This document shows positions 27,983-60,744 of a DNA stretch of 64,000 nt, in pieces. Each line of letters opens with the position of its first letter. The stretch's first letter is position 1. The DNA comes from Candidatus Omnitrophota bacterium. GTDB lineage: Bacteria; Omnitrophota; Omnitrophia; Omnitrophales; Aquincolibacteriaceae. The stretch covers positions 143,674 through 207,673 of the forward strand of contig JAKLFP010000002.1 of assembly GCA_022711115.1 (NCBI GenBank), in the 5' to 3' direction. A model generated the notes under the pieces. It ran no database searches. It was not told where the DNA came from and saw nothing but the letters and a program-made list of their open reading frames with translations. The position numbers and the translations under genes were made by a program.

Positions 27983-28172
27983 CGCTTTTATTTTATCATG
28001 AAAACAACTCGTCAACGACTCGAAGAATAACCGACAGACCATCAAGGCCTCCAACTTATTAAAAATTAAAATGTATCCGGCATTTAAATCTATTTCAATT
28101 TTTATTGATTTCCATTAGTCTGTTATCAAATTCTTGGTCATTCAGCAGCCAGAAAGTCACATACACCAATCA

Positions 28173-44400: not shown

Positions 44401-45375
44401 TTATCGCATTATTTCCGCTTGCACATCACTTTTTTTCAAACCACCGCGGAATGCATAAACGATACCCGCGCCAAAGCTGAAAGAATAAGTCAAAATATCC
44501 ATCAAAACCGTCAAGGCCAATGCCCGTTCCGGGGGTAGGTAACGGCTAAAAAGATAAATCACGCTAGCTTCGCGGACACCGAGTCCGCCGATCGAAGGTG
44601 CCATACTAACGATGCCGATGACAGGTATCAAGATAAAAAATTTCCAATAGACAATATTCGCGCCAAGGCTCACAGCCAACCAATAGTTGGTCGTGATAAA
44701 AACAGCCTGGCTGATGAAGGAGAGCAAGAGCGCCACAAAAACAGGCCAGTGGTGGTGGCGGTAACCGTAAATCGCATGATAAACCTCTGCCAATCGTGAC
44801 TTCCATTTTTCACTGGGGATGAGACGCCCCACCCCCTTGAACAGTCGGGCGAAATGCCGGCTGGCGAAAAAGGCCGTAAAAAAAAGCAAGAAGCCAAAAG
44901 CTCCATAAACGGCATAATCGACATAAGCACTTTCCACTTCCTTGCTGAAATACAAAAGCCCCAGGAACGCCATCACAATCAGAGCGATAAAACCGAGAAC
45001 ACGGTCCAAAAAAATCGAGGTTGCGGATTCGATCTTTTTTCCCGAATGTTTATAGGCATAGTAAGCCTTGGCGACATCTCCGCCGACCGCTGAAGGAAGG
45101 AAAAGGTTATAAAAAAGCCCGACAAACCCGAGATAATAGCAGGATAGAAAAGTGATGTGGATTTCCTGAACCCGGAAAACCCATTGAAGCCGTATCGCAA
45201 TAAGAGCAAGGCCAATCGCATAGCCAACCGCCGCTGCCGCAACCCATCCCCACTGTACCTCATGGCGAAGAATCGCCATGGCGTCATGGAGCTTGTCTCT
45301 CATAAAAAAAACAATGATCCCGATCGCGGCAAAACTGATAAAAAAACGGATGATCTTTCCCTTGATACCGTTCAT
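44401..45375 (-). CDS. Polytopic membrane protein of the UPF0104/LPG-synthase-TM (flippase-like) family
   Basis: About 8 TM helices with a lysylphosphatidylglycerol-synthase-TM-like topology. Weak motif support. Its start overlaps the DUF1844 stop (ATGA). Confidence 0.45.
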   Translation of the reverse strand: MNGIKGKIIRFFISFAAIGIIVFFMRDKLHDAMAILRHEVQWGWVAAAAVGYAIGLALIAIRLQWVFRVQEIHITFLSCYYLGFVGLFYNLFLPSAVGGDVAKAYYAYKHSGKKIESATSIFLDRVLGFIALIVMAFLGLLYFSKEVESAYVDYAVYGAFGFLLFFTAFFASRHFARLFKGVGRLIPSEKWKSRLAEVYHAIYGYRHHHWPVFVALLLSFISQAVFITTNYWLAVSLGANIVYWKFFILIPVIGIVSMAPSIGGLGVREASVIYLFSRYLPPERALALTVLMDILTYSFSFGAGIVYAFRGGLKKSDVQAEIMR

Positions 45376-45755
45376 GAATTCTGGGCGGCCTGGGCGAATT
45401 TGAATTGCAGCTGGGTCAGGAGAGCTTTGAGCATATCGGCTTCCTCCGCGCTTAAATTCCCCTTTGTTTTATCACGAAGCGCGATTAAAAGGTCGATGGA
45501 CTCCTTGGCGGATTCCAATTGGACCTCGCGTTCGTTCGTCATGGGATTGGGTATTTCCCCCAAATGCATGAGGGCTTGGTAGCCAAGAGATTGAATCAGA
45601 CTCAGGAAAGACTGGGAAGTTTCAGGTATTTTCTCCGCTTCCCTGGGCGCAGGCGCTTTTTCTTTGACGTTTTCCACCTGTTCCTTCCAGCTTTCATCGA
45701 CTTTCTTTTCGGAAAATCGGATATCTCTGTCCATTGTTATCCACTCCTGCTTCAA
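45372..45755 (-). CDS. DUF1844-like small acidic protein. The track start at 45755 is TTG; the first ATG is at 45734
   Basis: The central block FLSLIQSLGYQALMHLGEIPNPMT resembles the conserved DUF1844 core. Otherwise charged and low-complexity. Confidence 0.4.
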   Translation of the reverse strand: MKQEWITMDRDIRFSEKKVDESWKEQVENVKEKAPAPREAEKIPETSQSFLSLIQSLGYQALMHLGEIPNPMTNEREVQLESAKESIDLLIALRDKTKGNLSAEEADMLKALLTQLQFKFAQAAQNS

Positions 45756-45774
45756 AATTCCTGCTGCCAGTTAA

Positions 45775-45850
45775 AAAAAAGAGGTTCGTGACCGAGTGGG
45801 GATCTGGTGGCCACGAACCTCTGCAGGTGAGTCGAGACCCGTAAGTCTCG
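45775..45850. terminator. Two stem-loops: a 13-bp stem flanked by an A-run that reads as a U-run on the minus strand, plus a short cgagac/gtctcg hairpin. Probable terminator of the transposase transcript
   Basis: gaggttcgtgacc...ggccacgaacctc has 1 mismatch. On the minus strand it is followed by TTTTTTTT. Confidence 0.4.
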
Positions 45851-45900
45851 CAATGGTTAAACTATACTCCATAAATGGCATTTTGTCACGAAAAAAATAC

Positions 45901-46742
45901 CTAACCTACCCTGGCAAATCCGGGTATTGCCAGGGTTAGTCCACCAAGCAGCTTTTTATAATCTGAAGTTCTCTTTGCGTATCTTGATGCTCTGCCACAA
46001 ATTTCTCGTATGCCCTAGGGACTATTGAGAAGACATGGTCGAAATGGCATAAATCTTCGCCTTGGTTTTTCTGGATATATTCCCGATAAGATGAATACTC
46101 CCAGTCCGAAGGCGATGAAACTAGCCCTGCAGAACATGGATTTATATGAATGTAACGCGACAAATGCAACGCCTGAGCATCGTTGTTGACAAGAACATAT
46201 TGGAATCGCGATTCCCAAAGCGTACCTTTTCGGCGGATTTTGAGATTGAAATAGCGCGAGTAACTATGAAGTACAAGCCGCATAAAATCCGATATACCCC
46301 TTTGCGTAACCTGCGCCAAAAGCAAATGCAAATGAGTCGGCATAACGCAATAGGCAATAATTTCAATACGTTCATCACTTTGAGAATTTCTTTTATCATT
46401 TTTATCATCTAAAAGAGAAGGCCGTTGGGACTTGGAAAAAGAGGTCTTGGGATGGGCGCTTTTGTAAAACCGAAGCGTTTCAATCATCCTCAGGAATTCG
46501 TCAGGATAGCGAAATATTTCAAATCCCGCGATACTTCGAGCGAAGACGTGATAAAAACAACCCGTTACAAGCGGAACTTTCCGTTGGGGCATATTCGCGT
46601 TGTCAAAATACCTTTCTTGATTGTCAGTGGGGCTACCGACCCCTTGTCAAATCCTGGATTTGACAAAACTAAGAGTATCATAATATTGAATAAAAATCAA
46701 ATATAAATTGAAGAAAAAGCATGTCAAATCCCGGATTTGACA
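45901..46742. mobile_element. REPtron-like unit: the RAYT gene flanked by REP-like hairpins at 45901-45939 (cctggcaa...ttgccagg stem with an aatccgggta core), 46645-46665 (tgtcaaatcctggatttgaca) and 46722-46742 (tgtcaaatcccggatttgaca)
   Basis: Two perfect 21-nt palindromes differ by one base, and a third related hairpin overlaps the RAYT stop. The shared core is aaatcc(c/t)gg. Confidence 0.5.
45936..46592 (-). CDS. IS200/IS605-like HuH tyrosine (Y1) transposase of the REP-associated (RAYT) type
   Basis: HuH motif YCVMPTHLHLLL, catalytic-Tyr region LSRYIHINP. About 218 aa, with no second (TnpB) ORF. Flanked by REP-like palindromes. Confidence 0.8.
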   Translation of the reverse strand: MPQRKVPLVTGCFYHVFARSIAGFEIFRYPDEFLRMIETLRFYKSAHPKTSFSKSQRPSLLDDKNDKRNSQSDERIEIIAYCVMPTHLHLLLAQVTQRGISDFMRLVLHSYSRYFNLKIRRKGTLWESRFQYVLVNNDAQALHLSRYIHINPCSAGLVSSPSDWEYSSYREYIQKNQGEDLCHFDHVFSIVPRAYEKFVAEHQDTQRELQIIKSCLVD

Positions 46743-46777
46743 GGGTTTTCAAGGAGGAAGATAAAAACGGCAGAAAA

Positions 46778-46815
46778 AAAGAGGGGCAAGTCCCCTTCCT
46801 TGCCCCTCTTTTTGA
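46778..46815. terminator. Bidirectional rho-independent terminator immediately 3' of the giant gene
   Basis: aaaaaaa-agaggggcaag-tccccttc-cttgcccctct-ttttt is a perfect 11-bp GC-rich stem with an A-run and a T-run on either side. Confidence 0.6.
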
Positions 46816-46832
46816 TCCCCAAATTGTTTGGA

Positions 46833-49800
46833 TTACGCGGCTTTCGACGTCGCCTGGATCGTCAGGATATCGGACCAGAGCTTCGCCAAACCCGCTAATT
46901 TCATCTCATCGATGCCAAAGTACGCCTTCACCCGCTTCAGAACATCATCGCCAAGCTGACGGTTCAAAAGCGCCATGGCATCCATATTCTTGATCGATAC
47001 GTTCAGTTGTGCCGCCTTCATGGCCAAGAGACCTCTCAGACCCGCGTAGGCCTTGTTCCCTTTTTGGCTGTCAAACACCGTTCCGCTGAATTCCTTGTCT
47101 AGCATCTCCGGCATATCTTCGATCAAAAGAACCAGATGCTCTCCTCGATCCATCTCGGCAGTCAAGGCAGGATCCATCTTCCGAAGGTCACGGAAAACCT
47201 CACCCTCCGCCGTGCGGATCGCTTGGGCCGCTTGAAGCGTATTCGCAAAATTAATCGTCATACGGTTATCGATCAGCGAGCCTCGATAATCCGTCGTCTG
47301 CTGGATATTATCCCTGATATCCGCTTGGATTGCCAACTGCTCCGCTACCGAAACCTTATCGTTAACAACCAAAATACGGACAACCGCTCTGGGGTTCATT
47401 CCCAGCTGAAGTTTCAACTCATTCAGCCTCGCGGCATCGGGCAGTTCTTTCATCACGATCAGCACACCGCCAATATCGGTCGAAACAGAAATCACGGCAT
47501 TCGTCATGATCGACTTAGCAACCTCGGATTCGAGGAACTTGGTCCAATCCATTTCTCCGGTCTTGAGTGCGACCAATGTCGTCAAGGCAGTCACAACTTG
47601 TTCCACAGTCGGATTGCCAAAGGCAGGCACTACGATTTTCGCGACCACATCATTCAGAGTATCTGTTCCATACTTAAAAGGTTCACTTTCCAATTTTCTC
47701 AGGATTTCCGGTGCTAGCAGCCTCCTGACCTGATCAACCAATTCCTGGCGGACTTCGATCTCCAACTTGATCACCGGCAATTGAGGCCCCGCCTCCCTCA
47801 CCTCGGAGCGGGTCAATCGCCCCTTCAGTGCTAATTTAACAGCTTCGATAGTTCCAGGTCGCTGGCTCCGATCAGTTTCAGCTTTTAGGATACTATCTTC
47901 AAGAGCATTCATGCTGTTCGCAAAAAAGTCATTCCTCGTTTCCAACACGGCCATATGATGCAAGCTAGGGTATGATCCAGTCCTGATGGCAAAAGCGTCC
48001 AACCAATGCATGACATCTTCCTCACGAGTTTGGATCGTGTCAGCCGCAGCTATCGTTATTTCCCATGCGCTGACCACGCGATCAATGGTCTGCATTATGT
48101 TCGCAGATAATTTCCCCCTCACCTCGGAGCGGGCAGGACTGCGATATACAGTTTCTCCGCGCAATGTAATTTGCGCCGGTAACATTAAACCATCCGTTGT
48201 TTCTATCCGTAATTTGGAAAATTTTCCGCCAATATCTCGAAAGGGCACATGCCTGGCTTCGTCAAGATCAGTGACGAGTATACGCATCATTTTCCCTACC
48301 GATTTTCCTTTAGCATCAAGGGCCGTGACAAACATAACACTCCCTGCATTTAAACCATTTTGACGGATCGGATTAAGATTCAGTCGAACAAGATCTTTGG
48401 CATTGATCGGCTGATCTAGCCGCAGGGTGTATTCTCTTGCCTGCGTTGTTTTTCCATCCACGTGTCCAGTTATGATTTGGGTACCTAAGCCTATCACATG
48501 GAATTGACTCATTCTTACTTCGGAACGAGGCCCTCCTAAAAATCCTTCTGCCCCTCCTCCTCCGATGTCCGGCGTAAAGTCATATCGGCCTTGTTTCACA
48601 TTGATGGTTGCCGATTCAGGGCCTGTTAACGTAAATGAAAAGGTTCTCGCTTCGTGCACATTGATCCCCTGAACATTATTGATGTCAATCGTGTAATTCT
48701 GAGGCGTGTTCAAAACTCCAGTCAAATTAGCACGCCAGGTCTTCCCTTCGGCATCTTGAATCTCATAGCCGACAACGGGAGCGTTTGTACTCCCTAAGGA
48801 AAAGGTGATCCCATTGGGAAACTGCGTCGGGAGATCCACATTATTGGTGTAATTTGCAAAAACACCCCCAAAACTCGCCGTATTTTCTCCCACATAATTG
48901 AATGTGAATGTGTTCGTCTCCGTAACCTTGAGCTCCCCAACCACATTCGTACTGCTCACAAAATTACCCAACCCAACAAATGGCAATGGCGTGACGCTGG
49001 CAGTTTGATTCCCAGGCGGAACATCGGGAGCAAAATTCCAAGAACCCATGACTAGATCAGCGTTCTTAGGACCTTGCCCTTCAAAAACATAGACCATCTG
49101 ACGGACCTGCGTCGGATCAATCTTACGAGCCATTTGGTCCAAAGGCAGCGTGTATTTTTGCGAGCTGGGAGTAATACCGCTTAAAATGCCTGTCCAAGTA
49201 TTCGTATTGGCATCTTTAACCTCGACCTTCAAATGATCCAGATTGGGACTCGCAATCGAAAAGGTTAATCCGTTCGGATAAAGACTTTGAAAGTTAATAT
49301 TATTGGTATATTCAAACACCGTTCCCGCATAACCGGTAGCATTCGTGCTCGAGTAACTCATGCTCATGGTGTTTGTCCCGGTAATATTATTGAAAACCAC
49401 TTCACCTCCTGGCCCTGTGAAATTCATCGGATTAACTTGCGGCAGCGGTGTAATGGCAGCACCCTGATTGCCAGGAGGAATCGAGGGAACATAATCCCAA
49501 GATCCTAAAACAAGATCCGCGCTCTTGGGACCTTGCCCTTCAAAAACATAGACCACCTGCCTCACCTGAGTCGGATCAATCTTTTGTTGAAGGAGGTTGA
49601 GCGACAGCGTGTATTTTTGTAAACCCGGAGTGATGCCGCCAAGCATCCCTCTCCAAGTGTTGGTATTCGCATCTTTGACCTCCACTTTCAAGTGATTCAG
49701 ATTGGGGCTTGCGATCGAAAACGTCAGACCATTCGGATAAAGACTTTGAAAGTTAATGTTATTGGTATATTCAAACACAGTGCCCGCATATCCCGTAAAA

Positions 49801-52800
49801 TTCGTACTCGTATAACTCGCAGTCAGCGTATTGGTGCCCGTGATATCATTGAAAACCGATTCACCAGTCGGACCTGTAAAGGTCGTCGGATTCACTTGCG
49901 GCAGCGGCGTGATGGCAGTACTTTGATTTCCGGGCGGAATGATAGGAACGTAATCATAAGGACCAAGCTCAATCACATAGGTCTTCTGCCCTTCTCCTGC
50001 GGCGGTGAACACAATCTCCCGGATCTTGGTCGTATCGATCCCGTATATCTGATTCAAATTCACCGTGTATTTCTGAGGCGTCTCGGTAATGTCGCTAACA
50101 TTGCCACGCCAAGATCTTCCGTTCTCATCCTTGATCTCGAGAACCAACGAAGTGGCATCCAAACTGCCTACCGAAAAGGTAAGTCCATTCGGGAATTGAC
50201 TCGCAAAATCCACGTTATTGGTGAAACTTGAAAAAACACCCCCGAAGCTCGCGACATTGATACCGCTGTAACTCAAACGAAGAGCATTGGTCCTGATCAC
50301 CGTAACATCGGCAACCGTGTTCGTGCTGTCGGTGTAACTTCCCGTATTATTATTGACAGGCAACGGCGTGATCAAAGCACCCTGATTGGCTGCGGGCAAA
50401 ATCGGAGGAACATAGCTGTAGGGTCCAAGTTCGATCACATAGGTCTTCTGCCCTTCCCCTACCGCAGTGAAAACGATCTCTCGGATCTTAGTCGTATCGA
50501 TCCCGAATATTTGATTCAAGTTGACCGTATGCTTTTGAGCAGTCGCGCTAATACCGCTGATATTCCCACGCCAAACGTTCCCGTTCTCATCCTTGATCTC
50601 AATGCCCAAAATCGTCGCATTCGTGCTGGAAACTGAAAAGGTAAGACCATTGGGAAATGCGCTTGCAAAATCGACGCTATTAGTAAAACTTGAGTAAACC
50701 CCTCCATAACTATCCGCACTCGGTCCCGCATAATTCAGCATCACAACATTGGTGTTTTGCGCTGTGGCCAGAACCGATGCGTTCGTGCTATTAAAAGTAC
50801 CGAAGTTATTAAACGGCAAAGGGGTGATGTTGGCCGCTTGATTCCCAGGCGGAATATCGGGAATAAAATTCCAAGAGCCCATGACAAGATCGGCACTCTT
50901 CGGGCCTTGCCCTTCAAAAACATAGACCATCTGACGGACCTGCGTCGGATCAATCTTCCGAGCTATTTGGTCCAAAGGCAGCGTGTACTTTTGCTGATCC
51001 GGCGTGATGCTGCTAAGCATGCCAGTCCAGGTGTTGGTATTGGCATCCTTAACCTCGACTTTTAAATGATCCAGATTGGGACTGGCAATCGAAAAGGTCA
51101 GACCATTCGGGTAGAGATTCTGAAAGTTGATATTATTCGTGTATTCAAACACTGTCCCCGCATAACCGGTGGCATTCGTGCTCGCATAACTCATGCTCAG
51201 GGTATTGGTCCCAGTCACATTATTGGTAACTACCTCGCCTGTTGGTCCTGTAAAAGTGGTGGGATTGACCGTTGGAAGCGGTGTAATGTCCGCGGTTTGA
51301 TTGCCGGGAGGAATCGACGGAATATAGTTAAAATTTCCCCAATCCACATAGAGCGTTTTCTGTCCCTGACCTTCGATCACAAGCGTGATTTCCGTGATAT
51401 GCGTCTGATCAAGCGCTGGAGCATATTGCGTCATAAAACTGAGCGGAATATTAAAGCCTTTTCCTGAAGGCGTCAGATTGGATAGATATGCCGCAAAAAC
51501 ATTACCTCTCCCGTCCTTGAACTCAATCTTCACCCTTGAAAGATTGGGACTCGCTGCGAAGAGTCTCAAACCAGTCGGATAATTGGTCACCAAATTGATG
51601 GGGTTGTCTGCAAAATTGAATGCGGGACCCGCATAACTGGCAGTTCTGGCGCCGTTGACATTCACGGTCAAAAAGTTTTGCTCGTTTACCGTGTTCGTGA
51701 TCGTCGTACCGTCGTTGGAGTCAAAACTCCATAAATTCTGAACGGTCGGAAGCGGAGTCGCGGCTTTCTTCACGGCGCGGTAAACCTGCATGGGATTCAG
51801 CGAGAAATTTTGAATGAAATCAAGCGGCTGACCGGGTAAAACGAATTGATTGGTAACCAAAGTTCTCCACGGGCCGTTCACCTGCGCTGCGGCTTGAAGA
51901 TCAATGGCTCCAGGGCTGTAAGGCGCTTCCACGCGTACAGTTCCATTTTCACTAATAGACATCTGAGGCGGCATGAGCCCAGCCTCTGCGGCGTTTGTCA
52001 TTGTCACAGGCGCTTGGGATATTCCTACCACACTCATCAAACCAAACATAAGGGTCCGCAAAAGCGACGGCCTCATACTTCTGACAAACTGCTCTTGCGG
52101 CTGCGCCATCTCTTGACCCCTCATCTCCGAACGCATGCGGCTCCGAATAGCTTCATCAAGCGCGCGCAATGCGGGCTCATCTATTAGACCAAATTCAACT
52201 AATTTTTCCTCCACTTGCCTGCTTGCGTTCGCCAGTGCGAGGGCATTCCGCACGGCCCTCGTCGGATCAATTTTGAAAGCTACAACATCCGCCACTGTTT
52301 CGAGAGCCCAATCCGACTCGTCTCCCTGCACCCATTGCAAAAATTTCTCGATACCCGCATCAACCGCCCCCCTCACTTCGGATCGGGAGGCAACAGCGGT
52401 TTTGACCGCATCGACAAGTTGAACACCTGAAAAGGGCTTTGACAAAAATCCAACACTGGATTGTGCTACTGCTTTTCCTTCCACTGCGCTCAACCCTTCT
52501 GTCCCACCGCTCATCACAAGTGCCGCAATCGAATTGTTTTTAGCCCGGGCAGCTTCGACAATAACACTTTTTATAACCCCATCGCTTTTTTGAAAGGTAT
52601 CCTGACCATGCAGGATCCTGTCCGTGACCAGTACGTCAAAATCGTTTTCACTGATGGCTTGACGAGCGCCGTCAACCGTATCTGCGAATATCACGATCGC
52701 CCCTTCGCTCTCAAGTATTGCTTTTACTACTTCAAGAATCATGGGCTCATCATCAACAGCAAGAATCCGTTTTCCCGCAAGATTGATATCCGTAGGCAGA

Positions 52801-55800
52801 ACCGCCCTCACCTCGGAGCGGGTGGATTCGTCATATCCCTCAAGACGGATGTGGAGAGGCGATTGCCATTGCATCGTGGGGGTACTTGAACCAGTCCAGG
52901 AATTATATTGGGAAATTTTGTTGATATGCCCCTTGGGGTCTATCTCAAGCAGATAAAGCTGGTCCCCTAGCCGCTGGGGCGCTGTGTCCCTGAAACGTGC
53001 CAATTTAACAGAGAACTTTCCGCCTTCCCAGGAAATCCGACCTACGATCAGCATACCGCGCCAACCGAAATGCAATATACCGCCAAGCGGCTTGGACAGA
53101 ACCAAATCCTGACCCCAAAGACCTCGTAATAGCGTAAACCATGGCCTTGTAATCATCCTGAAACCGAAATCGACCCCACGAGAAATCGGCGCTAACAGAC
53201 GAAAGCCAGAAACACTTGTTAATGAACGAAGCAATTTGTTATCAGCCTCTGGATCTCTTCCATTCCCTACAAGCATCGGCGATAGCGGACGTCCTGTGGC
53301 ATCGAGATTGTCTGTCGCTTTCAAAAAGGCTCTCTGCAGACGCTGATAAATTTCATAACTTGGCATGGCACGTCCATAAGCCAACCACACCAGAAAAGTC
53401 AAAAAGATAAAATCATGCCGCTTGAGATAAATGACCTGGTTGTTCGCGGTAACCAAAAATGCCCGGCTTGATTCGCTCAAACGTCCGGCAATGCTCTGAA
53501 TCGTCTGTCTGGGAACGACGCTTTCATCATTCGCAAGCGCGTCTTTTTCCAGTTGTTGGATAAACGGCCTCCAATTTTCCTGATCCGTTGCCAGCATTTC
53601 GATTGCCGTGTCGATATTAGACCTCACCTCGGAACGGGCGGATTCGTCGCGTTTCATTCGTTCTTGTCTGGCTATGAACCACTTCCCAAAATAGTAGAGG
53701 CTGGTGCCCGCTAAAATTGCCGCCGGAACCACCATAGCCCCACGAATGATCCTGCCGAGTGAAGCAAAATTTATGACCGCACGATCCGATAGTGAAGCCT
53801 TGCCTTGCGGAGGTCTGACATTCACAACATCACGAATGAATGCCGTTGCGGCAGGATATCCGGGCTTACTGAACGGAAAAGTCGTCAGCCCTTTTAATAC
53901 AAAATCAATTTGGCCGCGTGTATTTCTTTGATGCTCATCCCATGCCATCACAAGGATCATGGCCCGCATGACTGTGAATTCCGATTCGGGGTGCACGGTC
54001 ACGCGGGTTGCGCCGCCGGTCCGTACCAGCCGCGTCCCACTGATCATTCCAATCCGTGTCGGAATGCCCCCGGCTCCGACCACTTCGGCTCTTTCCAAAT
54101 CGCTTTGATTGATAATAAAATCCCGGGAAATGAGACTTCCGAAGATTCGCGCATTCCAGAGACTGATGAGCCACAAGGCCCTCTGGTCCATCTCCGAAAA
54201 ATTTCTCACGGCCGGGTATTTAGCCAGAAATTCCGATTTTTTCTGAGCCCAGAGATTGTTGATATGCCCATTGACTGTCTGGACACGTTCTACCGGTGTC
54301 TTTTCCTCAAAATAGGTCCAGGCATGAAAGCGCTGATACTTTCGAGCGTCATCGATCCACTGATTCACTGACGGATAGGCCTTCCCAAGCCGGTATTCCT
54401 GAAATTGAGGAAAACCTTGCGCCTTGAGCGCGGCAGCACCTGCCGACTGCACAGGTCCTTGTGTTCTGGGAGCCTCCCCTGCTTCCACGGTTAAAGCACT
54501 TGCCAAAAGACCCAAACTGGCGGCAAAAAAAGTACGTCGCGTCACGGGCTGAAGTATTTCACGTTCTGACACTCTCAGTTCGGATCGCAAATTTTCTCTC
54601 GTCTCTCGAGCGCTTTCAATCAACGTCCCAAGTCTTTGGAACTCACTCGGCATGTTCAACGAAACGCCTGGCTGGGCCCGCAATCTTTCCGCAGCGGTTA
54701 TCATGGCTGCTAATTGCCCGTCTGCCTCTGCATCAACTGTTCCGCTTTGGACACGATCCTGTAATGCCCAAAATTGGCGTTCCAATTTTTTCACATCATC
54801 CGGCGTCGCCCTCAATTCGGCACGGGCCGCCCCAGAAGAAGAAAAGCCTAAACGACGTTCAAAGAAAGCGCGAGCTGCCCCTGCATAGTCGCGAAACTCC
54901 GGTCTACCGCTTGCCGGTTGATACGGAATTTCGGAAACTCGAAGTTCGTTTCGTCTTGTCGAATCCGCATGGGCAACCACAAGACTTGCGCCCAAGGCCA
55001 TCGCATCATATAAATGCGTCACATGAAACGCCTGCATTTCCTGACCCGGCTTAAAAAGCTGAGGAAAACTGACGACGAGACCGGAAACTGCCTGACCCTT
55101 TTGATCAACCGCCCTTGATTCCGCACGGAGTTCGATCGCTTTTATTCTGCCTGTTGCTTTCAGTTTATCGATCAGTGTGTTAATATCGGCAATGTCAAGC
55201 GTCCGCAGTTCCGAGCGGCCGGTAGATGTTCCTATGAAAGGGCGAAAACCGTTAACCCTCTCCCCAAGCGCCCAGCGAAACTGTTTGACAATGAACGCCG
55301 GAACCGCCGCTTGATACAGATGGATCATGTTTAACATTTCACCAAGAAAATATCGCAGTCTCTTGCCCCGTAATTCCGAGCGGCCGGTCGTTGCGCCAGT
55401 CTTTTCAATCTTCATTTCTCTCAGAGAACTGTCATTAGCATCATTCACAACTATCGTTTCACGCCCACTCCTGATAAACATTTCTTGAACATTAGCGGGC
55501 AAATCCTGCATCGTCAGACTAGATGCCGGTAAGTCCATCTTGGTTACTGGCGCGTTCGGCGTCGTGCCCCCCGCAACATTCACAGCCATCTTTGTGCCAG
55601 CCGTCGTATTCGTAGAGCTGAGCCGTGCAAGCGCCGGAGAATTCGTCGAAAAGATGAAAACACCACCATCTCCTTTATTTAAATAATATCCGGACCGAGC
55701 CTCCCAATTCATCAGATTATGTGTCTCTTCCGTTCTTACACCATTTATGGCAACCTCAAACGTTGTCGCCATCCGTCCATTCGGTAGTTGGAACAAATTC

Positions 55801-57983
55801 GGTGACATCGTGCCTGCATTCCCTTGCGCTCGCGCCACGTTGAGTGACAACGCCAAACCCATCAACGCTAACCCTATCTTCTGCCACCAATTCGATCGCA
55901 GCTCAGAACGACCTGCTAATGCCGGAGCCGGAGTTTTAGCCGCTGTCTCGACGAGCGCCAATGATGGTACTGCAATGGATGTTGCTCTGGAAGCCGGCGC
56001 AGTCGCATTCACAATCGTCGCTTTTTCTCCCATGACCGCAGATTGACTTGTTGCGGTCGCGGTACGAATCATGGCGGTCGTGCCTTGCTGAACGGCTATA
56101 TCCCATGTCTTGGTACTATCATTAAATACAAGCGTTCGAGTTCCCGTTTTACCATCTACCACGTACGTCATCGACCCTCCGCGCGTGGTCATGATCGGTA
56201 CTGCGCCTTTATCCGCCATATATCGGAAATTCTGATCCATAGTTGCGGTCGTTGTGATATCAGCCGCTGCGTCCAAGGCCGCGCTGACCACGAGTCGAAG
56301 CGTTTTAGAGCCGTCCTTGCCCATCGGATCTCCAGTCATCGTGACAGCATTTTCAATGGTCGCAATGTCAAAACGGGTCTTGGTGCGCTGTAACATGGTA
56401 TCGCGGTAAAGCTTCTCATCACTTTTTTCGCTGAGACGCGGCGTGACGATCCCGTAGCTGATGTCATGATCGCGGAAGATCTCGCTCAAACCGTCCGTGT
56501 GATAACCCCCGGTAATCAGAACCGCTTTGCCGATATTTTCTTCTGAAAGTTTTTTTTGGATTTGCACAAAAAAGGCATCTTCACGTTTCCTCGCGAGATC
56601 ATAGAAATCAATGCCGCTTGTGAAAAGTTCGGACATGCGTTTGGAAAAATCGGGCGGCATGACTTTCTGTTTCATAAGCGATTCGTCATTTTTGGAGACG
56701 GCCACCGCCTCCGTCAAACGCCCGACCATGGACTCGATGGTGAGGATCTTTTGTTTGTCCTGCACTTTGCGCGATTCCGTGCGGTTGAGTTCCAGGTGCA
56801 GCAGTTTGCGGAGGAGTTCGCCATCCCGATAAAGTTCGAGAAGATTCTTCTGCGCGGGCTCCTTGGCCAAGGTATCAAGCATTTTAGCGAAAAGGAATTC
56901 GATCTCTTCAAAAAGAGCTTTCGGATCCAGTTCATTTTTGAGGACCACATAACCGGCATAAAGACTGAAATTCGGATAATCGCTGAACTTGAATCCTCTG
57001 GGTCCGGCTTCCGCCGCCAGTTGTTCCAGAACCCATCGGGGCAATATTTCTTTCGCATCCTTACCCGTACCGGCCCTGCCCATACTGATATTGCCTTCCT
57101 GAAAATTTTCGATGGCCCGGACAAGTGCCTCCGAAGTTCTTTTTTCGCGAAGAAACTTCACGAGGGAATCCCGTTCGGCCAGCGCCTTGTTCCGCTCCAC
57201 GTCTTTTTCCATTGTCTGAATAACAAGAAGACGCGTGATTTGCGGCCAACCGACCTGGGCGAACAGGCTTTCCAGGTCCACGTTCAGAACCTTCTTCGCT
57301 TGTTTGACAAGCGATTTTACATAGGGCAAAAATTCGCGCCGCCCCATCTCAAAGCTTTTCCAATCCGCGATAAGCCCGCGTGTATCCGGTGTAAACGTTT
57401 TGGACGCAACTTGCTCCAGCCTCACGTCGAAAACTCGAAAGAATTTTTCCACATCCGTTTCGGCCCCAAAGACTTTCTTCAAGGCGTTGTAATTTTGTTT
57501 ATAGAGGGAAGCATTTTCGATACCGATCGCCTCCACTTCCGGCGGTGCCTCCAGCAAATAAAGTTCGGCACCCGTCAATTCGCCCTGTTTTGCCAGATTA
57601 TCGGAAAGCTTCAGATTGCGTTCCTTGTCCGGGAAAAGACGGAGATAATCCGCATTCAGTTTTTCAGAAGCGCCTTCCACGAACACGGTTTTGATCGCGT
57701 ATTTTTTGTTCAGGTATTCCAGGAGCTGCTTGATCTTGATTTGCGCCTGATAATTGGCGTGGGCATTCTGAATGTGAAGCACAAATTTCGGATCTTGTTT
57801 GACTGGCGCCTCATAAATTTCATCGATGCTTGCAAGGTCCGCAGGAATATCAAGGCTCAGAAAATTAGGGATTTCCCGAGGGTTGGCTATTTCGATGCGA
57901 GCGCCCGGATCTGCCCATGTGCACTGCGTGGTCAAAAAACAAACTACTGTTATTATCGCGACCACTTTTAAATACTTTTTCAT
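46833..57983 (-). CDS. Giant modular protein (3716 aa) of unknown function. It has an N-terminal signal peptide and an embedded CheY-like receiver domain. About 7 tandem 150-aa beta-sandwich repeats are present. At least 13 RSE[LV]R junction motifs occur, and internal Sec/Tat-like hydrophobic segments follow some of them
   Basis: An uninterrupted 11.15-kb frame. ATG at 57983 is preceded by a GGGGG Shine-Dalgarno. The signal peptide is MKKYLKVVAIITVVCFLTTQCTWA. The receiver domain is RILAVDDEPMILEVVKAIL...VLVTDRILHG...LSKPF. See findings for the repeats and motif. Confidence 0.8.
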   Translation of the reverse strand: MKKYLKVVAIITVVCFLTTQCTWADPGARIEIANPREIPNFLSLDIPADLASIDEIYEAPVKQDPKFVLHIQNAHANYQAQIKIKQLLEYLNKKYAIKTVFVEGASEKLNADYLRLFPDKERNLKLSDNLAKQGELTGAELYLLEAPPEVEAIGIENASLYKQNYNALKKVFGAETDVEKFFRVFDVRLEQVASKTFTPDTRGLIADWKSFEMGRREFLPYVKSLVKQAKKVLNVDLESLFAQVGWPQITRLLVIQTMEKDVERNKALAERDSLVKFLREKRTSEALVRAIENFQEGNISMGRAGTGKDAKEILPRWVLEQLAAEAGPRGFKFSDYPNFSLYAGYVVLKNELDPKALFEEIEFLFAKMLDTLAKEPAQKNLLELYRDGELLRKLLHLELNRTESRKVQDKQKILTIESMVGRLTEAVAVSKNDESLMKQKVMPPDFSKRMSELFTSGIDFYDLARKREDAFFVQIQKKLSEENIGKAVLITGGYHTDGLSEIFRDHDISYGIVTPRLSEKSDEKLYRDTMLQRTKTRFDIATIENAVTMTGDPMGKDGSKTLRLVVSAALDAAADITTTATMDQNFRYMADKGAVPIMTTRGGSMTYVVDGKTGTRTLVFNDSTKTWDIAVQQGTTAMIRTATATSQSAVMGEKATIVNATAPASRATSIAVPSLALVETAAKTPAPALAGRSELRSNWWQKIGLALMGLALSLNVARAQGNAGTMSPNLFQLPNGRMATTFEVAINGVRTEETHNLMNWEARSGYYLNKGDGGVFIFSTNSPALARLSSTNTTAGTKMAVNVAGGTTPNAPVTKMDLPASSLTMQDLPANVQEMFIRSGRETIVVNDANDSSLREMKIEKTGATTGRSELRGKRLRYFLGEMLNMIHLYQAAVPAFIVKQFRWALGERVNGFRPFIGTSTGRSELRTLDIADINTLIDKLKATGRIKAIELRAESRAVDQKGQAVSGLVVSFPQLFKPGQEMQAFHVTHLYDAMALGASLVVAHADSTRRNELRVSEIPYQPASGRPEFRDYAGAARAFFERRLGFSSSGAARAELRATPDDVKKLERQFWALQDRVQSGTVDAEADGQLAAMITAAERLRAQPGVSLNMPSEFQRLGTLIESARETRENLRSELRVSEREILQPVTRRTFFAASLGLLASALTVEAGEAPRTQGPVQSAGAAALKAQGFPQFQEYRLGKAYPSVNQWIDDARKYQRFHAWTYFEEKTPVERVQTVNGHINNLWAQKKSEFLAKYPAVRNFSEMDQRALWLISLWNARIFGSLISRDFIINQSDLERAEVVGAGGIPTRIGMISGTRLVRTGGATRVTVHPESEFTVMRAMILVMAWDEHQRNTRGQIDFVLKGLTTFPFSKPGYPAATAFIRDVVNVRPPQGKASLSDRAVINFASLGRIIRGAMVVPAAILAGTSLYYFGKWFIARQERMKRDESARSEVRSNIDTAIEMLATDQENWRPFIQQLEKDALANDESVVPRQTIQSIAGRLSESSRAFLVTANNQVIYLKRHDFIFLTFLVWLAYGRAMPSYEIYQRLQRAFLKATDNLDATGRPLSPMLVGNGRDPEADNKLLRSLTSVSGFRLLAPISRGVDFGFRMITRPWFTLLRGLWGQDLVLSKPLGGILHFGWRGMLIVGRISWEGGKFSVKLARFRDTAPQRLGDQLYLLEIDPKGHINKISQYNSWTGSSTPTMQWQSPLHIRLEGYDESTRSEVRAVLPTDINLAGKRILAVDDEPMILEVVKAILESEGAIVIFADTVDGARQAISENDFDVLVTDRILHGQDTFQKSDGVIKSVIVEAARAKNNSIAALVMSGGTEGLSAVEGKAVAQSSVGFLSKPFSGVQLVDAVKTAVASRSEVRGAVDAGIEKFLQWVQGDESDWALETVADVVAFKIDPTRAVRNALALANASRQVEEKLVEFGLIDEPALRALDEAIRSRMRSEMRGQEMAQPQEQFVRSMRPSLLRTLMFGLMSVVGISQAPVTMTNAAEAGLMPPQMSISENGTVRVEAPYSPGAIDLQAAAQVNGPWRTLVTNQFVLPGQPLDFIQNFSLNPMQVYRAVKKAATPLPTVQNLWSFDSNDGTTITNTVNEQNFLTVNVNGARTASYAGPAFNFADNPINLVTNYPTGLRLFAASPNLSRVKIEFKDGRGNVFAAYLSNLTPSGKGFNIPLSFMTQYAPALDQTHITEITLVIEGQGQKTLYVDWGNFNYIPSIPPGNQTADITPLPTVNPTTFTGPTGEVVTNNVTGTNTLSMSYASTNATGYAGTVFEYTNNINFQNLYPNGLTFSIASPNLDHLKVEVKDANTNTWTGMLSSITPDQQKYTLPLDQIARKIDPTQVRQMVYVFEGQGPKSADLVMGSWNFIPDIPPGNQAANITPLPFNNFGTFNSTNASVLATAQNTNVVMLNYAGPSADSYGGVYSSFTNSVDFASAFPNGLTFSVSSTNATILGIEIKDENGNVWRGNISGISATAQKHTVNLNQIFGIDTTKIREIVFTAVGEGQKTYVIELGPYSYVPPILPAANQGALITPLPVNNNTGSYTDSTNTVADVTVIRTNALRLSYSGINVASFGGVFSSFTNNVDFASQFPNGLTFSVGSLDATSLVLEIKDENGRSWRGNVSDITETPQKYTVNLNQIYGIDTTKIREIVFTAAGEGQKTYVIELGPYDYVPIIPPGNQSTAITPLPQVNPTTFTGPTGESVFNDITGTNTLTASYTSTNFTGYAGTVFEYTNNINFQSLYPNGLTFSIASPNLNHLKVEVKDANTNTWRGMLGGITPGLQKYTLSLNLLQQKIDPTQVRQVVYVFEGQGPKSADLVLGSWDYVPSIPPGNQGAAITPLPQVNPMNFTGPGGEVVFNNITGTNTMSMSYSSTNATGYAGTVFEYTNNINFQSLYPNGLTFSIASPNLDHLKVEVKDANTNTWTGILSGITPSSQKYTLPLDQMARKIDPTQVRQMVYVFEGQGPKNADLVMGSWNFAPDVPPGNQTASVTPLPFVGLGNFVSSTNVVGELKVTETNTFTFNYVGENTASFGGVFANYTNNVDLPTQFPNGITFSLGSTNAPVVGYEIQDAEGKTWRANLTGVLNTPQNYTIDINNVQGINVHEARTFSFTLTGPESATINVKQGRYDFTPDIGGGGAEGFLGGPRSEVRMSQFHVIGLGTQIITGHVDGKTTQAREYTLRLDQPINAKDLVRLNLNPIRQNGLNAGSVMFVTALDAKGKSVGKMMRILVTDLDEARHVPFRDIGGKFSKLRIETTDGLMLPAQITLRGETVYRSPARSEVRGKLSANIMQTIDRVVSAWEITIAAADTIQTREEDVMHWLDAFAIRTGSYPSLHHMAVLETRNDFFANSMNALEDSILKAETDRSQRPGTIEAVKLALKGRLTRSEVREAGPQLPVIKLEIEVRQELVDQVRRLLAPEILRKLESEPFKYGTDTLNDVVAKIVVPAFGNPTVEQVVTALTTLVALKTGEMDWTKFLESEVAKSIMTNAVISVSTDIGGVLIVMKELPDAARLNELKLQLGMNPRAVVRILVVNDKVSVAEQLAIQADIRDNIQQTTDYRGSLIDNRMTINFANTLQAAQAIRTAEGEVFRDLRKMDPALTAEMDRGEHLVLLIEDMPEMLDKEFSGTVFDSQKGNKAYAGLRGLLAMKAAQLNVSIKNMDAMALLNRQLGDDVLKRVKAYFGIDEMKLAGLAKLWSDILTIQATSKAA
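48540..51950. repeat. About 7 tandem coding repeats of about 456 bp (152 aa) inside the giant gene, in two alternating sequence subtypes
   Basis: Units begin ...IPPGNQ.A.ITPLP and end ...(F/Y)(I/V)P. Subtype 1 carries TFTGPTGE...KVEVKDANTNTW; subtype 2 carries IKDENG..WRGN. Several units are at least 85-90% identical at protein level. The antisense frames repeat as well (MIQIGACDRKRQTIRIK... at 49692 and MIQIGTGNRKGQTIRVE... at 51066). Confidence 0.8.
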
Positions 57984-58178
57984 TACACCCCCCTTTGCGG
58001 TGTCTTTGAGAAACTCTTTTTAAGACTATATTAAAACTATTTAAAGAGTAACACCTTTTTGACAATTTTCAAGGGACAATGATTAACATTCTTCCTAATA
58101 CAACATCTATCAAAATAAAATATTTAAGGTCTATATTCATTCTAGATAATGACTCTAAATTGTTACAGATCCTGGATT

Positions 58179-58910
58179 TCAAGTTTTTTCAACAAAACGG
58201 ACAGCCAGACCTAATTGTTCCTTTCGAACTTCCTTGCGGCATATCTCCCCTGAAATTTGATATTCTTCCGGAAAGTTTGCGCTCGGAAATATATGGATCT
58301 CAACCTTAAGGCCCTCGATAGGATTCAACGCATCAATCCTATGAGAAACCCCAAGGTCAAGATATTCCCCGAAAAGCCCCCCCTCACTGATATTTGTCGC
58401 AATGGCGGTGGTTTGGATCATTTCTCCGCTTGCGGTAAATATCTTTAATTCCAGCGGAACCGCAACGTGCATGCGGTGGCTCCGCCGCTGTTCTAGCTGA
58501 TAGCCAAGCGACTCCTGGGGGGTTTTAACACCCTTGGCCATAATCTTCTTGTCGGGATCCTTAACGAAAAGAAAGGGCCCAAAAGATTCGGCCACCTGCT
58601 TCTCATCCGAGCAGATATCCACTTTCCCCGAGGGAAAGTTATCCTCGATACAGTGGGCCATTTCTGGCGTCACCCCGTAAAGCACGCTATGCTTGGGACG
58701 GATGCAAACCGTCAAAAGACGTCGCATCCCTATCGCATCCAGAGGACCCGACTCTTGGAAGTTTAGGATAATCTGCTGCAAGCCGTAGCGCCGGATGTTT
58801 TTCTGAATCTTCCAGGCTACCTCCTGCACCGATTCAAAGGTCGGCATGCCCTTGAGATCAAAAACCGAAACCCCGCCGATTTCTCGCGTTGAATAATGGA
58901 ATTTAGTCAT
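58179..58910 (-). CDS. STAS (anti-sigma-antagonist-like) - PilZ fusion protein; putative c-di-GMP receptor. ATG at 58910; the track start at 58997 is GTG
   Basis: N-terminal STAS-like fold (MTKFHYSTREIGGVSVFDLKG...). C-terminal PilZ motifs QRRSHRMHV (RxxxR) and NISEGGL (D/NxSxGG). Confidence 0.6.
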   Translation of the reverse strand: MTKFHYSTREIGGVSVFDLKGMPTFESVQEVAWKIQKNIRRYGLQQIILNFQESGPLDAIGMRRLLTVCIRPKHSVLYGVTPEMAHCIEDNFPSGKVDICSDEKQVAESFGPFLFVKDPDKKIMAKGVKTPQESLGYQLEQRRSHRMHVAVPLELKIFTASGEMIQTTAIATNISEGGLFGEYLDLGVSHRIDALNPIEGLKVEIHIFPSANFPEEYQISGEICRKEVRKEQLGLAVRFVEKT

Positions 58911-59341
58911 AACGCATCTTCCTCTTTTTGAACCGTTCGACCCTCCAAAGAATTCGGTGGATTCTGGGATAGATGTACCCTGAAAGAATATCTCCACGCT
59001 GGATGACGTAGGCCAATTGAGGACCCCCTTTCCCGTTCATTTTCATACTGCGAAAATCTTGAAGATCATGTGTCATTTTCATCACTCCTCTTTTTCAAAT
59101 TGTCCATAATATCATTTAACAACTTTTACTATGTTCTAACAAAAACATAACTCAGTAAAATACTTTTGTCAATATGTTATATATATAAAATATTTAATTA
59201 TATATTTTATTAATATTTATAAATATATATATCAAAAACAAGCAAATACATAACAAAAATGAGCCAAATTGACTCACTCTAAAAAACTTAAATCACTACC
59301 TTGGAAAGTCCTTGCCGGAGGCAAGAAGATTTTTAGAAGAT

Positions 59342-60694: not shown

Positions 60695-60744
60695 TGAGGG
60701 TCCTTGGCTTTCACCCTGCCGATTCCGTAAACGACCTGGGCAGA

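What the first reader, a model, noticed from the sequence alone, without database searches (positions are those of the whole stretch)
48540..51950. Near-identical tandem repeats of about 456 bp encoding 152-aa beta-sandwich-like units in two alternating subtypes
There are seven units, the most divergent at each end. Subtype 1 units (three copies) share ...NPTTFTGPTGEVV.NN.TGTNT...YAGTVFEYTNNINFQ.LYPNGLTFSIASPNL.HLKVEVKDANTNTW.G.L..ITP..QKYTL.L...KIDPTQVRQ.VYVFEGQGPK.ADLV.GSW... Subtype 2 units (two copies) share ...FGGVFSSFTNNVDFAS.FPNGLTFSV.S..AT.L..EIKDENG..WRGN.S.I....QK.TVNLNQI.GIDTTKIREIVFTA.GEGQKTYVIELGPY.YVP. Each unit ends at a P-P-G-N-Q boundary. The Asn/Thr/Gly-rich composition and conserved aromatic positions suggest a carbohydrate-binding or Ig-like beta-sandwich. 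The high DNA identity makes the block a hotspot for unit gain or loss by recombination. Short-read assemblies also tend to collapse such blocks.
Basis: seen in the sequence. Interest (0 to 1): 0.6.

Follow-up and report, generated by a model that had tools for sequence, protein, structure and literature searches.

The report
Seven diverged sugar-binding-like repeats, Omnitrophota protein
The seven ~153-residue repeats are real but old and diverged copies of an unclassified sugar-binding-like beta-sandwich domain. They form one probably exported module of a 3,716-residue protein from an uncultured Omnitrophota bacterium, and that protein's modules are separated by a recurring R-S-E-V-R motif that may mark cleavage sites.

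Summary
The repeat is confirmed. There are seven head-to-tail units of 152-153 aa (window 48546-51755, minus strand) inside one 3,716-aa ORF (46833-57983). The units are not near-identical: DNA identity is at most 83%, dS is 0.8-2.2 and dN/dS is about 0.1. They are old duplicates under purifying selection, so the array is neither a strong recombination hotspot nor an assembly risk. Three assemblies give identical DNA.

An AlphaFold2 model (pLDDT 93) is a beta-jelly-roll. Its closest solved folds are CBM11, CBM30 and the CBM-like domains of GH50 agarases (TM 0.60-0.65, 10-18% identity). No Pfam, NCBIfam or PDB sequence match exists. The family is rare: 206 of 1.84 billion cluster representatives, and every named member is Omnitrophota.

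The array follows a Sec-like signal peptide. It is bracketed by two copies of an R-S-E-[VLM]-R motif that occurs 11 times in this ORF and once elsewhere in the six-frame translation of the window.

Related Omnitrophota genes share only the N- and C-terminal domains. Their middles are unrelated modules separated by R-x-E-x-R, and some modules begin with Sec or Tat signals.

Best reading: an exported, multivalent glycan-binding or adhesion module. Cleavage at the motifs is inferred, not shown.

The parts
46833..57983 (-). Single 3,716-aa ORF (ATG to stop) that contains the array
   Evidence: The identical protein was found on 4 contigs from 3 samples. The gene DNA is 100% identical in L001-L003.
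48528..52118 (-). The array module (aa 1956-3152): signal-like start, a head region of about 75 aa, then seven CBM-like units. It is bounded by two junction motifs.
52119..52133 (-). Junction motif R-S-E-M-R (aa 1951-1955), just upstream of the array module
51981..52082 (-). Sec-signal-peptide-like segment, aa 1968-2001. It reads RSMRPSLLR (basic), TLMFGLMSVVGI (hydrophobic), SQAPVTMTNAAEA (A-x-A end).
   Evidence: Read from the sequence. No signal-peptide predictor was available.
51756..51980 (-). Non-repeat head region (aa 2002-2076) between the signal-like segment and U1
   Evidence: not matched by the unit profile
51297..51755 (-). Unit U1 (aa 2077-2229), divergent N-terminal unit
50838..51296 (-). 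Unit U2 (aa 2230-2382), subtype A. This is the unit that was modelled.
50382..50837 (-). Unit U3 (aa 2383-2534), subtype B. It ends in P-A-A-N-Q.
49923..50381 (-). Unit U4 (aa 2535-2687), subtype B
49464..49922 (-). Unit U5 (aa 2688-2840), subtype A
49005..49463 (-). Unit U6 (aa 2841-2993), subtype A. It is 88% identical in protein and 83% in DNA to U2.
48546..49004 (-). Unit U7 (aa 2994-3146), divergent and B-like. It ends in GGGGAE, 6 aa before the next junction motif.
48513..48527 (-). Junction motif R-S-E-V-R (aa 3153-3157), just downstream of the array
55911..57983 (-). Conserved N-terminal domain (aa 1-691, with an N-terminal hydrophobic signal or anchor). It defines an Omnitrophota-specific family.
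   Evidence: 423 related stretches in GTDB genomes. No known family or fold was found.
46836..47795 (-). Conserved C-terminal domain (aa 3397-3716), ending ...ATSKAA
   Evidence: No known family was found.
52386..52805 (-). Response-regulator receiver module (aa 1727-1866), bracketed by junction motifs at aa 1722 and 1867
   Evidence: (PF00072, 34.5 bits against a cut-off of 30.2)
53637..54572 (-). Module aa 1138-1449. It starts with a Tat-like signal (TRRTFFAASLGLLASALTVEA) 10 aa after the junction motif at aa 1133.
55896..55910 (-). First junction motif, R-S-E-L-R (aa 692). It is followed by the Sec-like segment SNWWQKIGLALMGLALSLNVARAQG. Further motifs lie at window 55368, 55203, 54939, 54891, 54810, 54573, 53622, 52806, 52371, 48117 and 47796 (15 nt each).

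Best explanation
The block encodes seven tandem copies of a sequence-unclassified beta-jelly-roll domain of the carbohydrate-binding-module kind (CBM11/CBM30-like). The copies are joined by short proline-rich linkers (I-P-P-G-N-Q-x-A-x-I-T-P-L-P). The array sits behind its own Sec-type signal-like segment and forms one module of a 3,716-aa modular protein from an uncultured Omnitrophota bacterium. Most likely the array is exported and acts as a multivalent binder of a surface polysaccharide, for example on another cell. The two maintained subtypes plus two divergent end units would give avidity and possibly more than one specificity.

Shown: the repeat, its age and selective constraint, the fold, the family distribution, the module boundaries and the signal-like segment. 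Inferred: export, glycan binding, and release of the module by cleavage at the flanking R-S-E-x-R motifs.
For: Seven units are found by self-alignment and by an independent profile. dN/dS of 0.09-0.13 with dS of 0.8-2.2 shows long-term purifying selection on each copy. The AlphaFold2 model has pLDDT 93.3 and pTM 0.85. Its top Foldseek PDB matches are CBM11 with bound glucan (6r3m, E 7.7e-7, TMq 0.60), the CBM-like domains of GH50 agarases (TMq 0.64-0.65), CBM30 (TMq 0.63-0.65), a mannanase CBM, and then CBM29, CBM16 and CBM4. Viral matches include several phage tail-fibre and tail proteins and CBM-annotated phage proteins.

Homologous units occur almost only as arrays of 2-21 copies in long proteins, and several of the 10 whole sequences inspected start with a signal-peptide-like N-terminus. 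Every named member is Omnitrophota. The module starts with a basic-hydrophobic-AxA segment 14 aa after a junction motif. The same layout of junction, signal peptide, units and junction is seen in the paralogue L022. Published work on Omnitrophota giant proteins also reports CBM-like periodic folds and proposes prey-surface attachment (bioRxiv 10.1101/2023.11.21.568195).
Against: There is no sequence match to any CBM family in Pfam or NCBIfam, and none to PDB sequences. Fold similarity is moderate (TM 0.60-0.65, 10-18% identity). The same fold also occurs in non-glycan binders such as NDUFAF1/CIA30 (7zkp). Pfam finds no glycoside hydrolase in this protein. Export rests on a signal-like segment that lies inside a long ORF, and I judged it by eye.
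Confidence: 0.6

Rival explanations
1. The units are a passive structural spacer or a protein-protein interaction scaffold (a stalk of beta-sandwich beads) with no glycan-binding role.
For: Many long bacterial surface proteins use tandem beta-sandwich domains as rods (established knowledge). One good fold match, NDUFAF1/CIA30 (7zkp), is a protein-binding assembly factor. No CBM sequence signature was found.
Against: The best matches are dominated by ligand-binding CBMs and, in the viral library, by several phage tail-fibre and tail proteins. Two subtypes kept distinct at about 40% identity under dN/dS of about 0.1 fit specific binding surfaces better than a mere spacer does.
Confidence: 0.25
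2. The array is a recently expanded, near-identical repeat that acts as a contingency locus, gaining and losing units by homologous recombination, and it may be mis-assembled.
For: One 53-nt identical tract between U2 and U6 is longer than expected (permutation p about 0.0007). This is compatible with an old conversion event.
Against: Maximum DNA identity is 83%, dS is 0.8-2.2, other shared exact stretches are 28 nt or less, and TRF finds nothing. The gene DNA is identical in three assemblies from different samples. No copy-number variants were found in the searched collections.
Confidence: 0.05
3. The whole 3,716-aa product is not processed. It stays as one multi-pass membrane protein, and the internal signal-like segments act as transmembrane helices that place the array outside the cell and the receiver domain inside.
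For: A topology can be drawn that puts the receiver domain (aa 1740-1861) in the cytoplasm and the array outside, using hydrophobic segments at about aa 1152, 1412 and 1978. Nothing here shows cleavage.
Against: This does not explain why a five-residue R-x-E-x-R motif marks every module boundary family-wide (352 observed against 42 expected), or why its flavour is specific to each paralogue. Canonical twin-arginine signals sit 2-18 aa after junctions. The basic residues before the aa 703-718 segment conflict with an outside location for the N-terminal domain.
Confidence: 0.3

Closest known systems
Family 11 carbohydrate-binding module (Clostridium thermocellum; PDB 6r3m)
   Same: It is the best solved-structure match (E 7.7e-7, TMq 0.60). 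It has the same beta-jelly-roll sandwich and a similar size of about 170 aa.
   Different: Identity is only 16% and there is no Pfam match to any CBM family. By my own knowledge CBM11 is a single module attached to glucanases, whereas here seven copies stand in a row and Pfam finds no catalytic domain. Ligand binding is untested.
CBM30 (2c24, 1wzx) and the N-terminal CBM-like domains of GH50 exo-beta-agarases (4bq3, 5z6p, 6xj9)
   Same: They share the fold class with equal or better TM-scores of 0.63-0.65.
   Different: Identity is 10-18%. Those domains accompany glycoside hydrolase catalytic domains, and none is detected here.
Repeating CBM35-like beta-barrels in 'Dockerin-type' giant Omnitrophota proteins (West-Roberts et al., bioRxiv 10.1101/2023.11.21.568195)
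   Same: Same phylum. Both are unannotated, periodically repeated CBM-like beta domains in very long predicted surface proteins, with a proposed role in attachment to other cells.
   Different: Those units are about 200 aa, are linked by paired helices, sit in proteins of 30,000 aa or more and co-occur with dockerin repeats. Here the units are 153 aa with proline linkers, the closest folds are CBM11 and CBM30, and Pfam detects no dockerin domain.
Gingipain and HagA polyproteins of Porphyromonas gingivalis ('cleaved adhesin' jelly-roll domains); from my own knowledge
   Same: These are tandem beta-jelly-roll adhesin domains inside a polyprotein that is cut at Arg/Lys sites between domains. This is the closest working analogy if the R-x-E-x-R motifs are cleavage sites.
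   Different: There is no Pfam match to the Cleaved_Adhesin or Peptidase_C25 families. The phylum differs. Cleavage here is only inferred, and the junction motifs bracket the whole array rather than each unit.
MARTX toxins (conserved terminal regions, variable central effector modules, autoprocessing between modules); from my own knowledge
   Same: The architecture matches. Conserved N- and C-terminal domains flank a middle whose modules differ completely between genes at the same genomic position, with a short recurring motif between modules.
   Different: Pfam detects no RTX repeats and no cysteine protease domain. The modules include exported (Sec/Tat) and receiver-domain modules. There is no evidence of toxin function.

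Membership tests
CBM11 / CBM30-type carbohydrate-binding modules | Beta-jelly-roll sandwich fold | tested here: met
   AF2 model pLDDT 93.3. Foldseek PDB matches: 6r3m E 7.7e-7 with TMq 0.60; 2c24 and 1wzx with TMq 0.63-0.65.
CBM11 / CBM30-type carbohydrate-binding modules | Significant sequence-profile match to a curated CBM family | tested here: not met
   No Pfam or NCBIfam hit for the whole protein, for 45 family units scanned singly, or against PDB sequences.
CBM11 / CBM30-type carbohydrate-binding modules | Demonstrated glycan binding through a cleft lined with aromatic residues | not testable with these tools
   The model coordinates could not be inspected. No binding assay was possible.
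CBM11 / CBM30-type carbohydrate-binding modules | Attached to a carbohydrate-active catalytic module | tested here: not met
   The only Pfam domain in the 3,716-aa protein is Response_reg.
   One of 45 units hits Big_2 at E 0.09. No significant Foldseek match (E <= 0.001, 29 chains) is described as a discoidin or bacterial Ig-like domain, and most are CBMs or CBM-like domains of glycoside hydrolases.
Omnitrophota N-domain/C-domain modular protein family (defined here) | N-terminal domain of about 560-690 aa with H-I-Q-N-A-H, V-E-G and T-G-G-F/Y-H-T-x-G motifs | tested here: met
   24 protein homologues at E 1e-19 to 1e-170. 423 stretches in GTDB genomes, and every record title that names a phylum is Omnitrophota.
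Omnitrophota N-domain/C-domain modular protein family (defined here) | Conserved C-terminal domain of about 300 aa ending ...[ST]-x-[AS]-A | tested here: met
   BLAST hits to 10 family ORFs. C-terminal endings are listed and aligned as A4.
Omnitrophota N-domain/C-domain modular protein family (defined here) | Recurring R-x-E-x-R motifs between modules | tested here: met
   Window: 11 strict motifs against 1 in the rest of the six-frame translation. Family: 352 observed against 42 expected.
Self-processing polyprotein (MARTX-like or gingipain-like) | A recognisable protease domain in the same protein | tested here: not met
   No peptidase family in Pfam or NCBIfam. The N-domain model has no significant PDB fold match (EreC 6xcq only at rank 50, E 3). 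The C-domain has no match.
Self-processing polyprotein (MARTX-like or gingipain-like) | Proteolytic cleavage at inter-module sites | not testable with these tools
   Only indirect support exists: Sec and Tat signals directly after junctions, and a cytoplasmic-type receiver module in the same ORF.
Archaeovorin / Dockerin-type giant Omnitrophota proteins (West-Roberts 2023) | 30,000 aa or more, with C39 or S8 peptidase, SecA-like or dockerin/TSP3 domains | tested here: not met
   The protein is 3,716 aa and none of these domains is detected.

The most novel reading that the evidence does not exclude
The array is one of about 14 modules in a previously undescribed, Omnitrophota-wide family of polyproteins. 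In this reading, conserved N- and C-terminal domains carry a hypervariable string of unrelated modules. The R-x-E-x-R junction motif, whose flavour is specific to each paralogue, is a proteolytic processing site. Cleavage would free each module to go its own way: Sec- or Tat-exported modules such as this CBM-like array, and cytoplasmic modules such as the receiver domain. These motifs would be the first concrete candidate cleavage points in large Omnitrophota proteins, which the literature says are missing.
Probability: 0.4. Interest if true: 0.8.

Novelty: new member of a known kind. Interest (0 to 1): 0.5.

Why it matters
On its own the array is an ordinary kind of thing: tandem CBM-like beta-sandwich domains in a long surface-type protein. 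The domain family has no Pfam, NCBIfam or PDB sequence match and appears confined to Omnitrophota. That phylum is uncultured, thought to be host-dependent or predatory, and its attachment machinery is unknown.

The greater value lies in the context. The array is bracketed by a short peptide motif that marks module boundaries across several hundred related Omnitrophota genes, and N-terminal-type export signals sit directly behind that motif. [quoted passage not shown] These motifs give a specific, testable answer for at least this family.

Tried and rejected
1. Tandem Repeats Finder on 46-54 kb found nothing because the units are too diverged.

2. A whole-protein search of the 5.8-billion-protein set timed out. 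The seven-unit alignment gave no hit there. A two-unit query gave one weak hit and not even the protein itself. The word index therefore misses this family. The exhaustive profile search was what worked.

3. I searched for copy-number variants. An exact 25-mer shared by U2, U5 and U6 found nothing in metagenome contigs (the pattern was verified in the window). A protein-guided scan of the same collection also found nothing. No strain comparison was possible beyond three identical assemblies.

4. I tested the idea that the motif is a DNA or RNA signal, or a ribosome-binding site for internal starts. Some copies read GAGGTGAGG, which resembles a Shine-Dalgarno sequence. I rejected the idea because the motif codons vary synonymously at every position, paralogues use RSESR, RAEKR or RPEAR, and most junctions have no start codon at a suitable distance.

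5. I tested the idea that the N-terminal domain is a Tiki/TraB/erythromycin-esterase-like hydrolase. The idea came from HIQNAH, VEG and GGYHTDG motifs seen by eye. It is not supported. There is no Pfam or PDB sequence hit. The AF2 model (pLDDT 78) has no significant Foldseek hit, and EreC appears only at rank 50 with E 3.

6. The C-terminal domain has no known family.

8. Literature searches for the motif strings and for cleavage sites in Omnitrophota returned nothing relevant.

9. GC content of the array (0.47-0.49) is about the same as the rest of the gene (0.48-0.53), so there is no compositional sign of recent transfer.


Full report
**Observation**

The finding lies inside one very long ORF on the minus strand, window 46833-57983, 3,716 aa.

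Direct-repeat search finds copies spaced 459 or 462 nt apart with 62-83% identity. Tandem Repeats Finder finds nothing. Cutting the protein at the P-[PA]-[GA]-N-Q boundaries gives seven units of 152-153 aa, at aa 2077-3146 and window 48546-51755. A profile built only from homologues in other organisms detects exactly seven domains, each with E between 1e-33 and 1e-38.

The N-to-C order is:
- U1, divergent
- U2, subtype A
- U3 and U4, subtype B
- U5 and U6, subtype A
- U7, divergent and B-like

Identities are:

| Comparison | Protein identity | DNA identity |
|---|---|---|
| A with A | 79-88% | 76-83% |
| B with B | 68% | 68% |
| A with B | about 40% | 51-55% |
| End units with the rest | 26-43% | 42-54% |

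'Near-identical' and 'alternating' are not.

**Age and stability**

Nei-Gojobori estimates between the closest units are:
- U2/U6: dS 0.82, dN 0.08
- U2/U5: dS 1.48
- U5/U6: dS 1.06
- U3/U4: dS 2.18

dN/dS is 0.09-0.13 for these pairs. The copies are old and each is kept by purifying selection.

The longest exact stretch shared by two units is 53 nt (U2 and U6). All other pairs share 28 nt or less. The 53-nt tract is longer than expected when mismatches are permuted within codon positions (p about 0.0007). One old conversion event is therefore possible, but the array is a poor substrate for frequent unequal recombination.

The exact protein occurs on four contigs from three samples. The 11,151-nt gene is 100% identical in the three loci fetched. 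Assembly collapse is not a concern. No copy-number variants or close relatives were found.

**What the unit is**

The unit has no Pfam or NCBIfam match, and none to PDB sequences.

An exhaustive profile search of 1.84 billion cluster representatives finds only 206 proteins at E <= 1e-3 and 118 at E <= 1e-10. Almost all have 2-21 copies, in proteins from a few hundred to 7,110 aa. Several of the 10 whole sequences I inspected start with a signal-peptide-like N-terminus. Every member that carries a source name is Candidatus Omnitrophota.

With a 45-sequence alignment of diverse units, AlphaFold2 gives a confident model. It has pLDDT 93.3 and pTM 0.85, with about ten strands and two short helices. 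The Foldseek matches against the PDB are:
- CBM11 with bound mixed-linkage glucan (6r3m, E 7.7e-7, TMq 0.60)
- the CBM-like N-terminal domains of GH50 agarases (4bq3, 5z6p, 6xj9; TMq 0.64-0.65)
- CBM30 (2c24, 1wzx; TMq 0.63-0.65)
- a mannanase CBM (1wky)
- NDUFAF1/CIA30 (7zkp)
- then CBM29, CBM16 and CBM4, all at 10-18% identity

Against predicted viral structures, the matches include several phage tail-fibre and tail proteins and CBM-annotated phage proteins.

The unit is thus a beta-jelly-roll of the CBM type, not an Ig-like fold. By sequence it is a new family. Glycan binding is inferred from the fold only.

**Where the array sits**

The ORF carries a short motif, R-S-E-[VLM]-R, 11 times. 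The relaxed form R-[SNPA]-E-[VLMF]-R occurs 14 times. The strict form occurs only once in the rest of the six-frame translation of the 64-kb window. The codons of the motif vary synonymously at every position, so the constraint is on the peptide.

The motifs cut the protein into a 691-aa N-terminal domain, 13 middle segments and a 320-aa C-terminal domain. The array module is aa 1956-3152. Its parts, in order, are:
- R-S-E-M-R
- a 14-aa gap
- a signal-peptide-like segment (RSMRPSLLR, TLMFGLMSVVGI, SQAPVTMTNAAEA)
- a head region of about 75 aa
- the seven units
- a 6-aa gap
- R-S-E-V-R

Other modules include a bona fide response-regulator receiver domain (PF00072, 34.5 bits). One module begins with a twin-arginine-like signal (TRRTFFAASLGLL...). 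Another begins with a Sec-like signal.

**The wider family**

The N-terminal domain has 24 protein homologues, and three of the four with a source name are Omnitrophota. It matches 423 stretches in species-representative genomes, and every record title that names a phylum is Omnitrophota. There are often several paralogues per genome.

The ORFs range from 923 aa to more than 3,900 aa, and many end in ...[ST]-x-[AS]-A. R-x-E-x-R is enriched about eightfold after the N-domain. The count is 352 observed against 42 expected in 70 ORFs. Control ORFs from the same loci give 154 against 91. The flavour of the motif is specific to each paralogue:
- the window protein: RSE[VL]R
- L016: nine copies of RSESR
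- L010: seven copies of RAEKR
- L005: R[SA]EAR
- L025: RPEAR

About 20 genomes keep the same neighbourhood: pheT, a rarA-like gene, a PilZ-domain gene, the modular gene, a DUF1844 gene and an LPG-synthase gene. The modular gene at that position is 1,575-3,684 aa. It shares only the N- and C-terminal domains with the window protein. Apart from the first segment (aa 697-867), which matches L005, and part of the aa 3290-3391 segment, which matches L032, none of the middle segments has a BLAST match among the syntenic genes, and the array has none.

CBM-like units occur in only two non-syntenic paralogues (L022 and L023) and in P0079. In the window protein, P0079 and both L022 arrays the units end 3-25 aa before a junction motif; the L023 units lie far from one.

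Canonical Tat signals lie 2-18 aa after junctions in five of the 11 Tat-like sites found, although only 10.5% of the sequence lies within 40 aa after a junction. One of them continues into a possible lipobox (LTGC). Sec-like signals follow the junctions ahead of the CBM module in L022.

**How it most likely works**

The array is best read as an exported, multivalent CBM-like binding module. The two conserved subtypes and two divergent end units give avidity and perhaps more than one specificity.

N-terminal-type Sec and Tat signals and a cytoplasmic-type receiver domain coexist in one ORF, each directly behind the same motif. The simplest account is that the product is a polyprotein cut at or near R-x-E-x-R, which frees modules to reach different compartments.

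This is inference. No protease domain was found. A single multi-pass membrane topology remains possible.

**Literature**

A study of giant Omnitrophota genes reports CBM-like periodic folds, proposes attachment to prey surfaces, and suspects post-translational cleavage. [quoted passage not shown] A 2026 survey concludes that repeat architectures in long Omnitrophota proteins are mostly ancient duplications whose nucleotide tandems have dissolved (bioRxiv 10.64898/2026.06.07.730766). That matches what is seen here. I found no description of the R-x-E-x-R motif or of this N/C-domain family.

**Verdict**

The fold interpretation is supported. The recombination and assembly inferences are not.

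The array itself is a new sequence family of a known kind, so its interest is moderate. The surrounding modular, motif-delimited architecture is the more novel lead. It makes a stated open question testable.

Noticed in passing
window 46833-57983 (-). Motifs at 55896, 55368, 55203, 54939, 54891, 54810, 54573, 53622, 52806, 52371, 52119, 48513, 48117 and 47796 (15 nt each).: R-S-E-[VLM]-R occurs 11 times (14 in relaxed form) in the giant ORF and once elsewhere in the six-frame translation of the window. The codons vary synonymously. The motif marks the boundaries between unrelated modules. Family-wide, R-x-E-x-R is about eightfold enriched, and its flavour is specific to each paralogue (RSESR, RAEKR, RPEAR and others).
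   Followed up: partly
window 53637-54572 (-), aa 1138-1449. Also L023 aa 2197, L024 aa 1323, L026 aa 3065 and L032 aa 1270.: Canonical twin-arginine (Tat) signal motifs sit 2-18 aa after junction motifs, deep inside long ORFs. This holds for 5 of 11 Tat-like sites although only 10.5% of the sequence lies within 40 aa after a junction. One of them continues into a possible lipobox (LTGC). Internal N-terminal-type export signals suggest processing of a polyprotein.
   Followed up: partly
window 52386-52805 (-), aa 1727-1866: A response-regulator receiver domain (PF00072) forms its own module between two junction motifs, in the same ORF as modules that carry export signals. By eye it has the acidic pocket DD, the acceptor Asp in VLVTD, and Lys-Pro.
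   Followed up: partly
window 44401-62811; loci L004-L021, L032, L035, L039, L045, L058: The neighbourhood pheT, rarA-like gene, PilZ gene, modular gene, DUF1844 gene and LPG-synthase gene is conserved in about 20 Omnitrophota genomes. The modular gene there is 1,575-3,684 aa. Only its N- and C-terminal domains, plus at most one or two flanking segments in single genomes (L005, L032), match the window protein, so the middle is hypervariable at a fixed chromosomal site.
   Followed up: partly
window 58179-58997 (-): The gene directly upstream of the giant ORF encodes a PilZ-domain protein (c-di-GMP-binding family). It is conserved next to the modular gene in syntenic genomes at 53-73% identity over its full length, so the two may be functionally linked.
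   Followed up: no
window 45936-46592 (-): An IS200-like Y1 transposase ORF (PF01797, E 1.6e-9) lies directly downstream of the giant gene. In the window the gap between the giant gene and the DUF1844 gene is about 1.1 kb. In L019 that gap works out at only about 0.4 kb, which suggests a lineage-specific insertion.
   Followed up: partly
P0002, P0003, P0016, P0020 (homologues of the unit from other Omnitrophota): By eye, four of the long array-bearing proteins without R-x-E-x-R motifs share an N-terminal region with an H-T-H-P-x(6-9)-S-x-x-D motif that resembles the JAMM/MPN metalloprotease signature. These four proteins were not scanned against Pfam.
   Followed up: no
P0004, P0008, P0016 (C-terminal parts): Some array-bearing homologues carry a conserved C-terminal region of several hundred residues (...FPYD.I...G.P....TQPT.IGFYLQ...). 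It looked glycoside-hydrolase-like by eye, but P0004, the only one of the three scanned, gave no Pfam hit at E <= 0.01.
   Followed up: partly
window 50905-50957 and 49072-49124 (-): U2 and U6 share a 53-nt perfectly identical tract, although the two units are 83% identical overall (permutation p about 0.0007). This could be an old gene-conversion tract or unusually strong constraint on the segment encoding KIDPTQVRQMVYVFEGQG.
   Followed up: yes
window 2540-4903 (-), 17163-19562 (-), 28134-29720 (+): Three further long ORFs in the window (787, 799 and 528 aa) have no Pfam match at E <= 0.001. They were not examined further.
   Followed up: no
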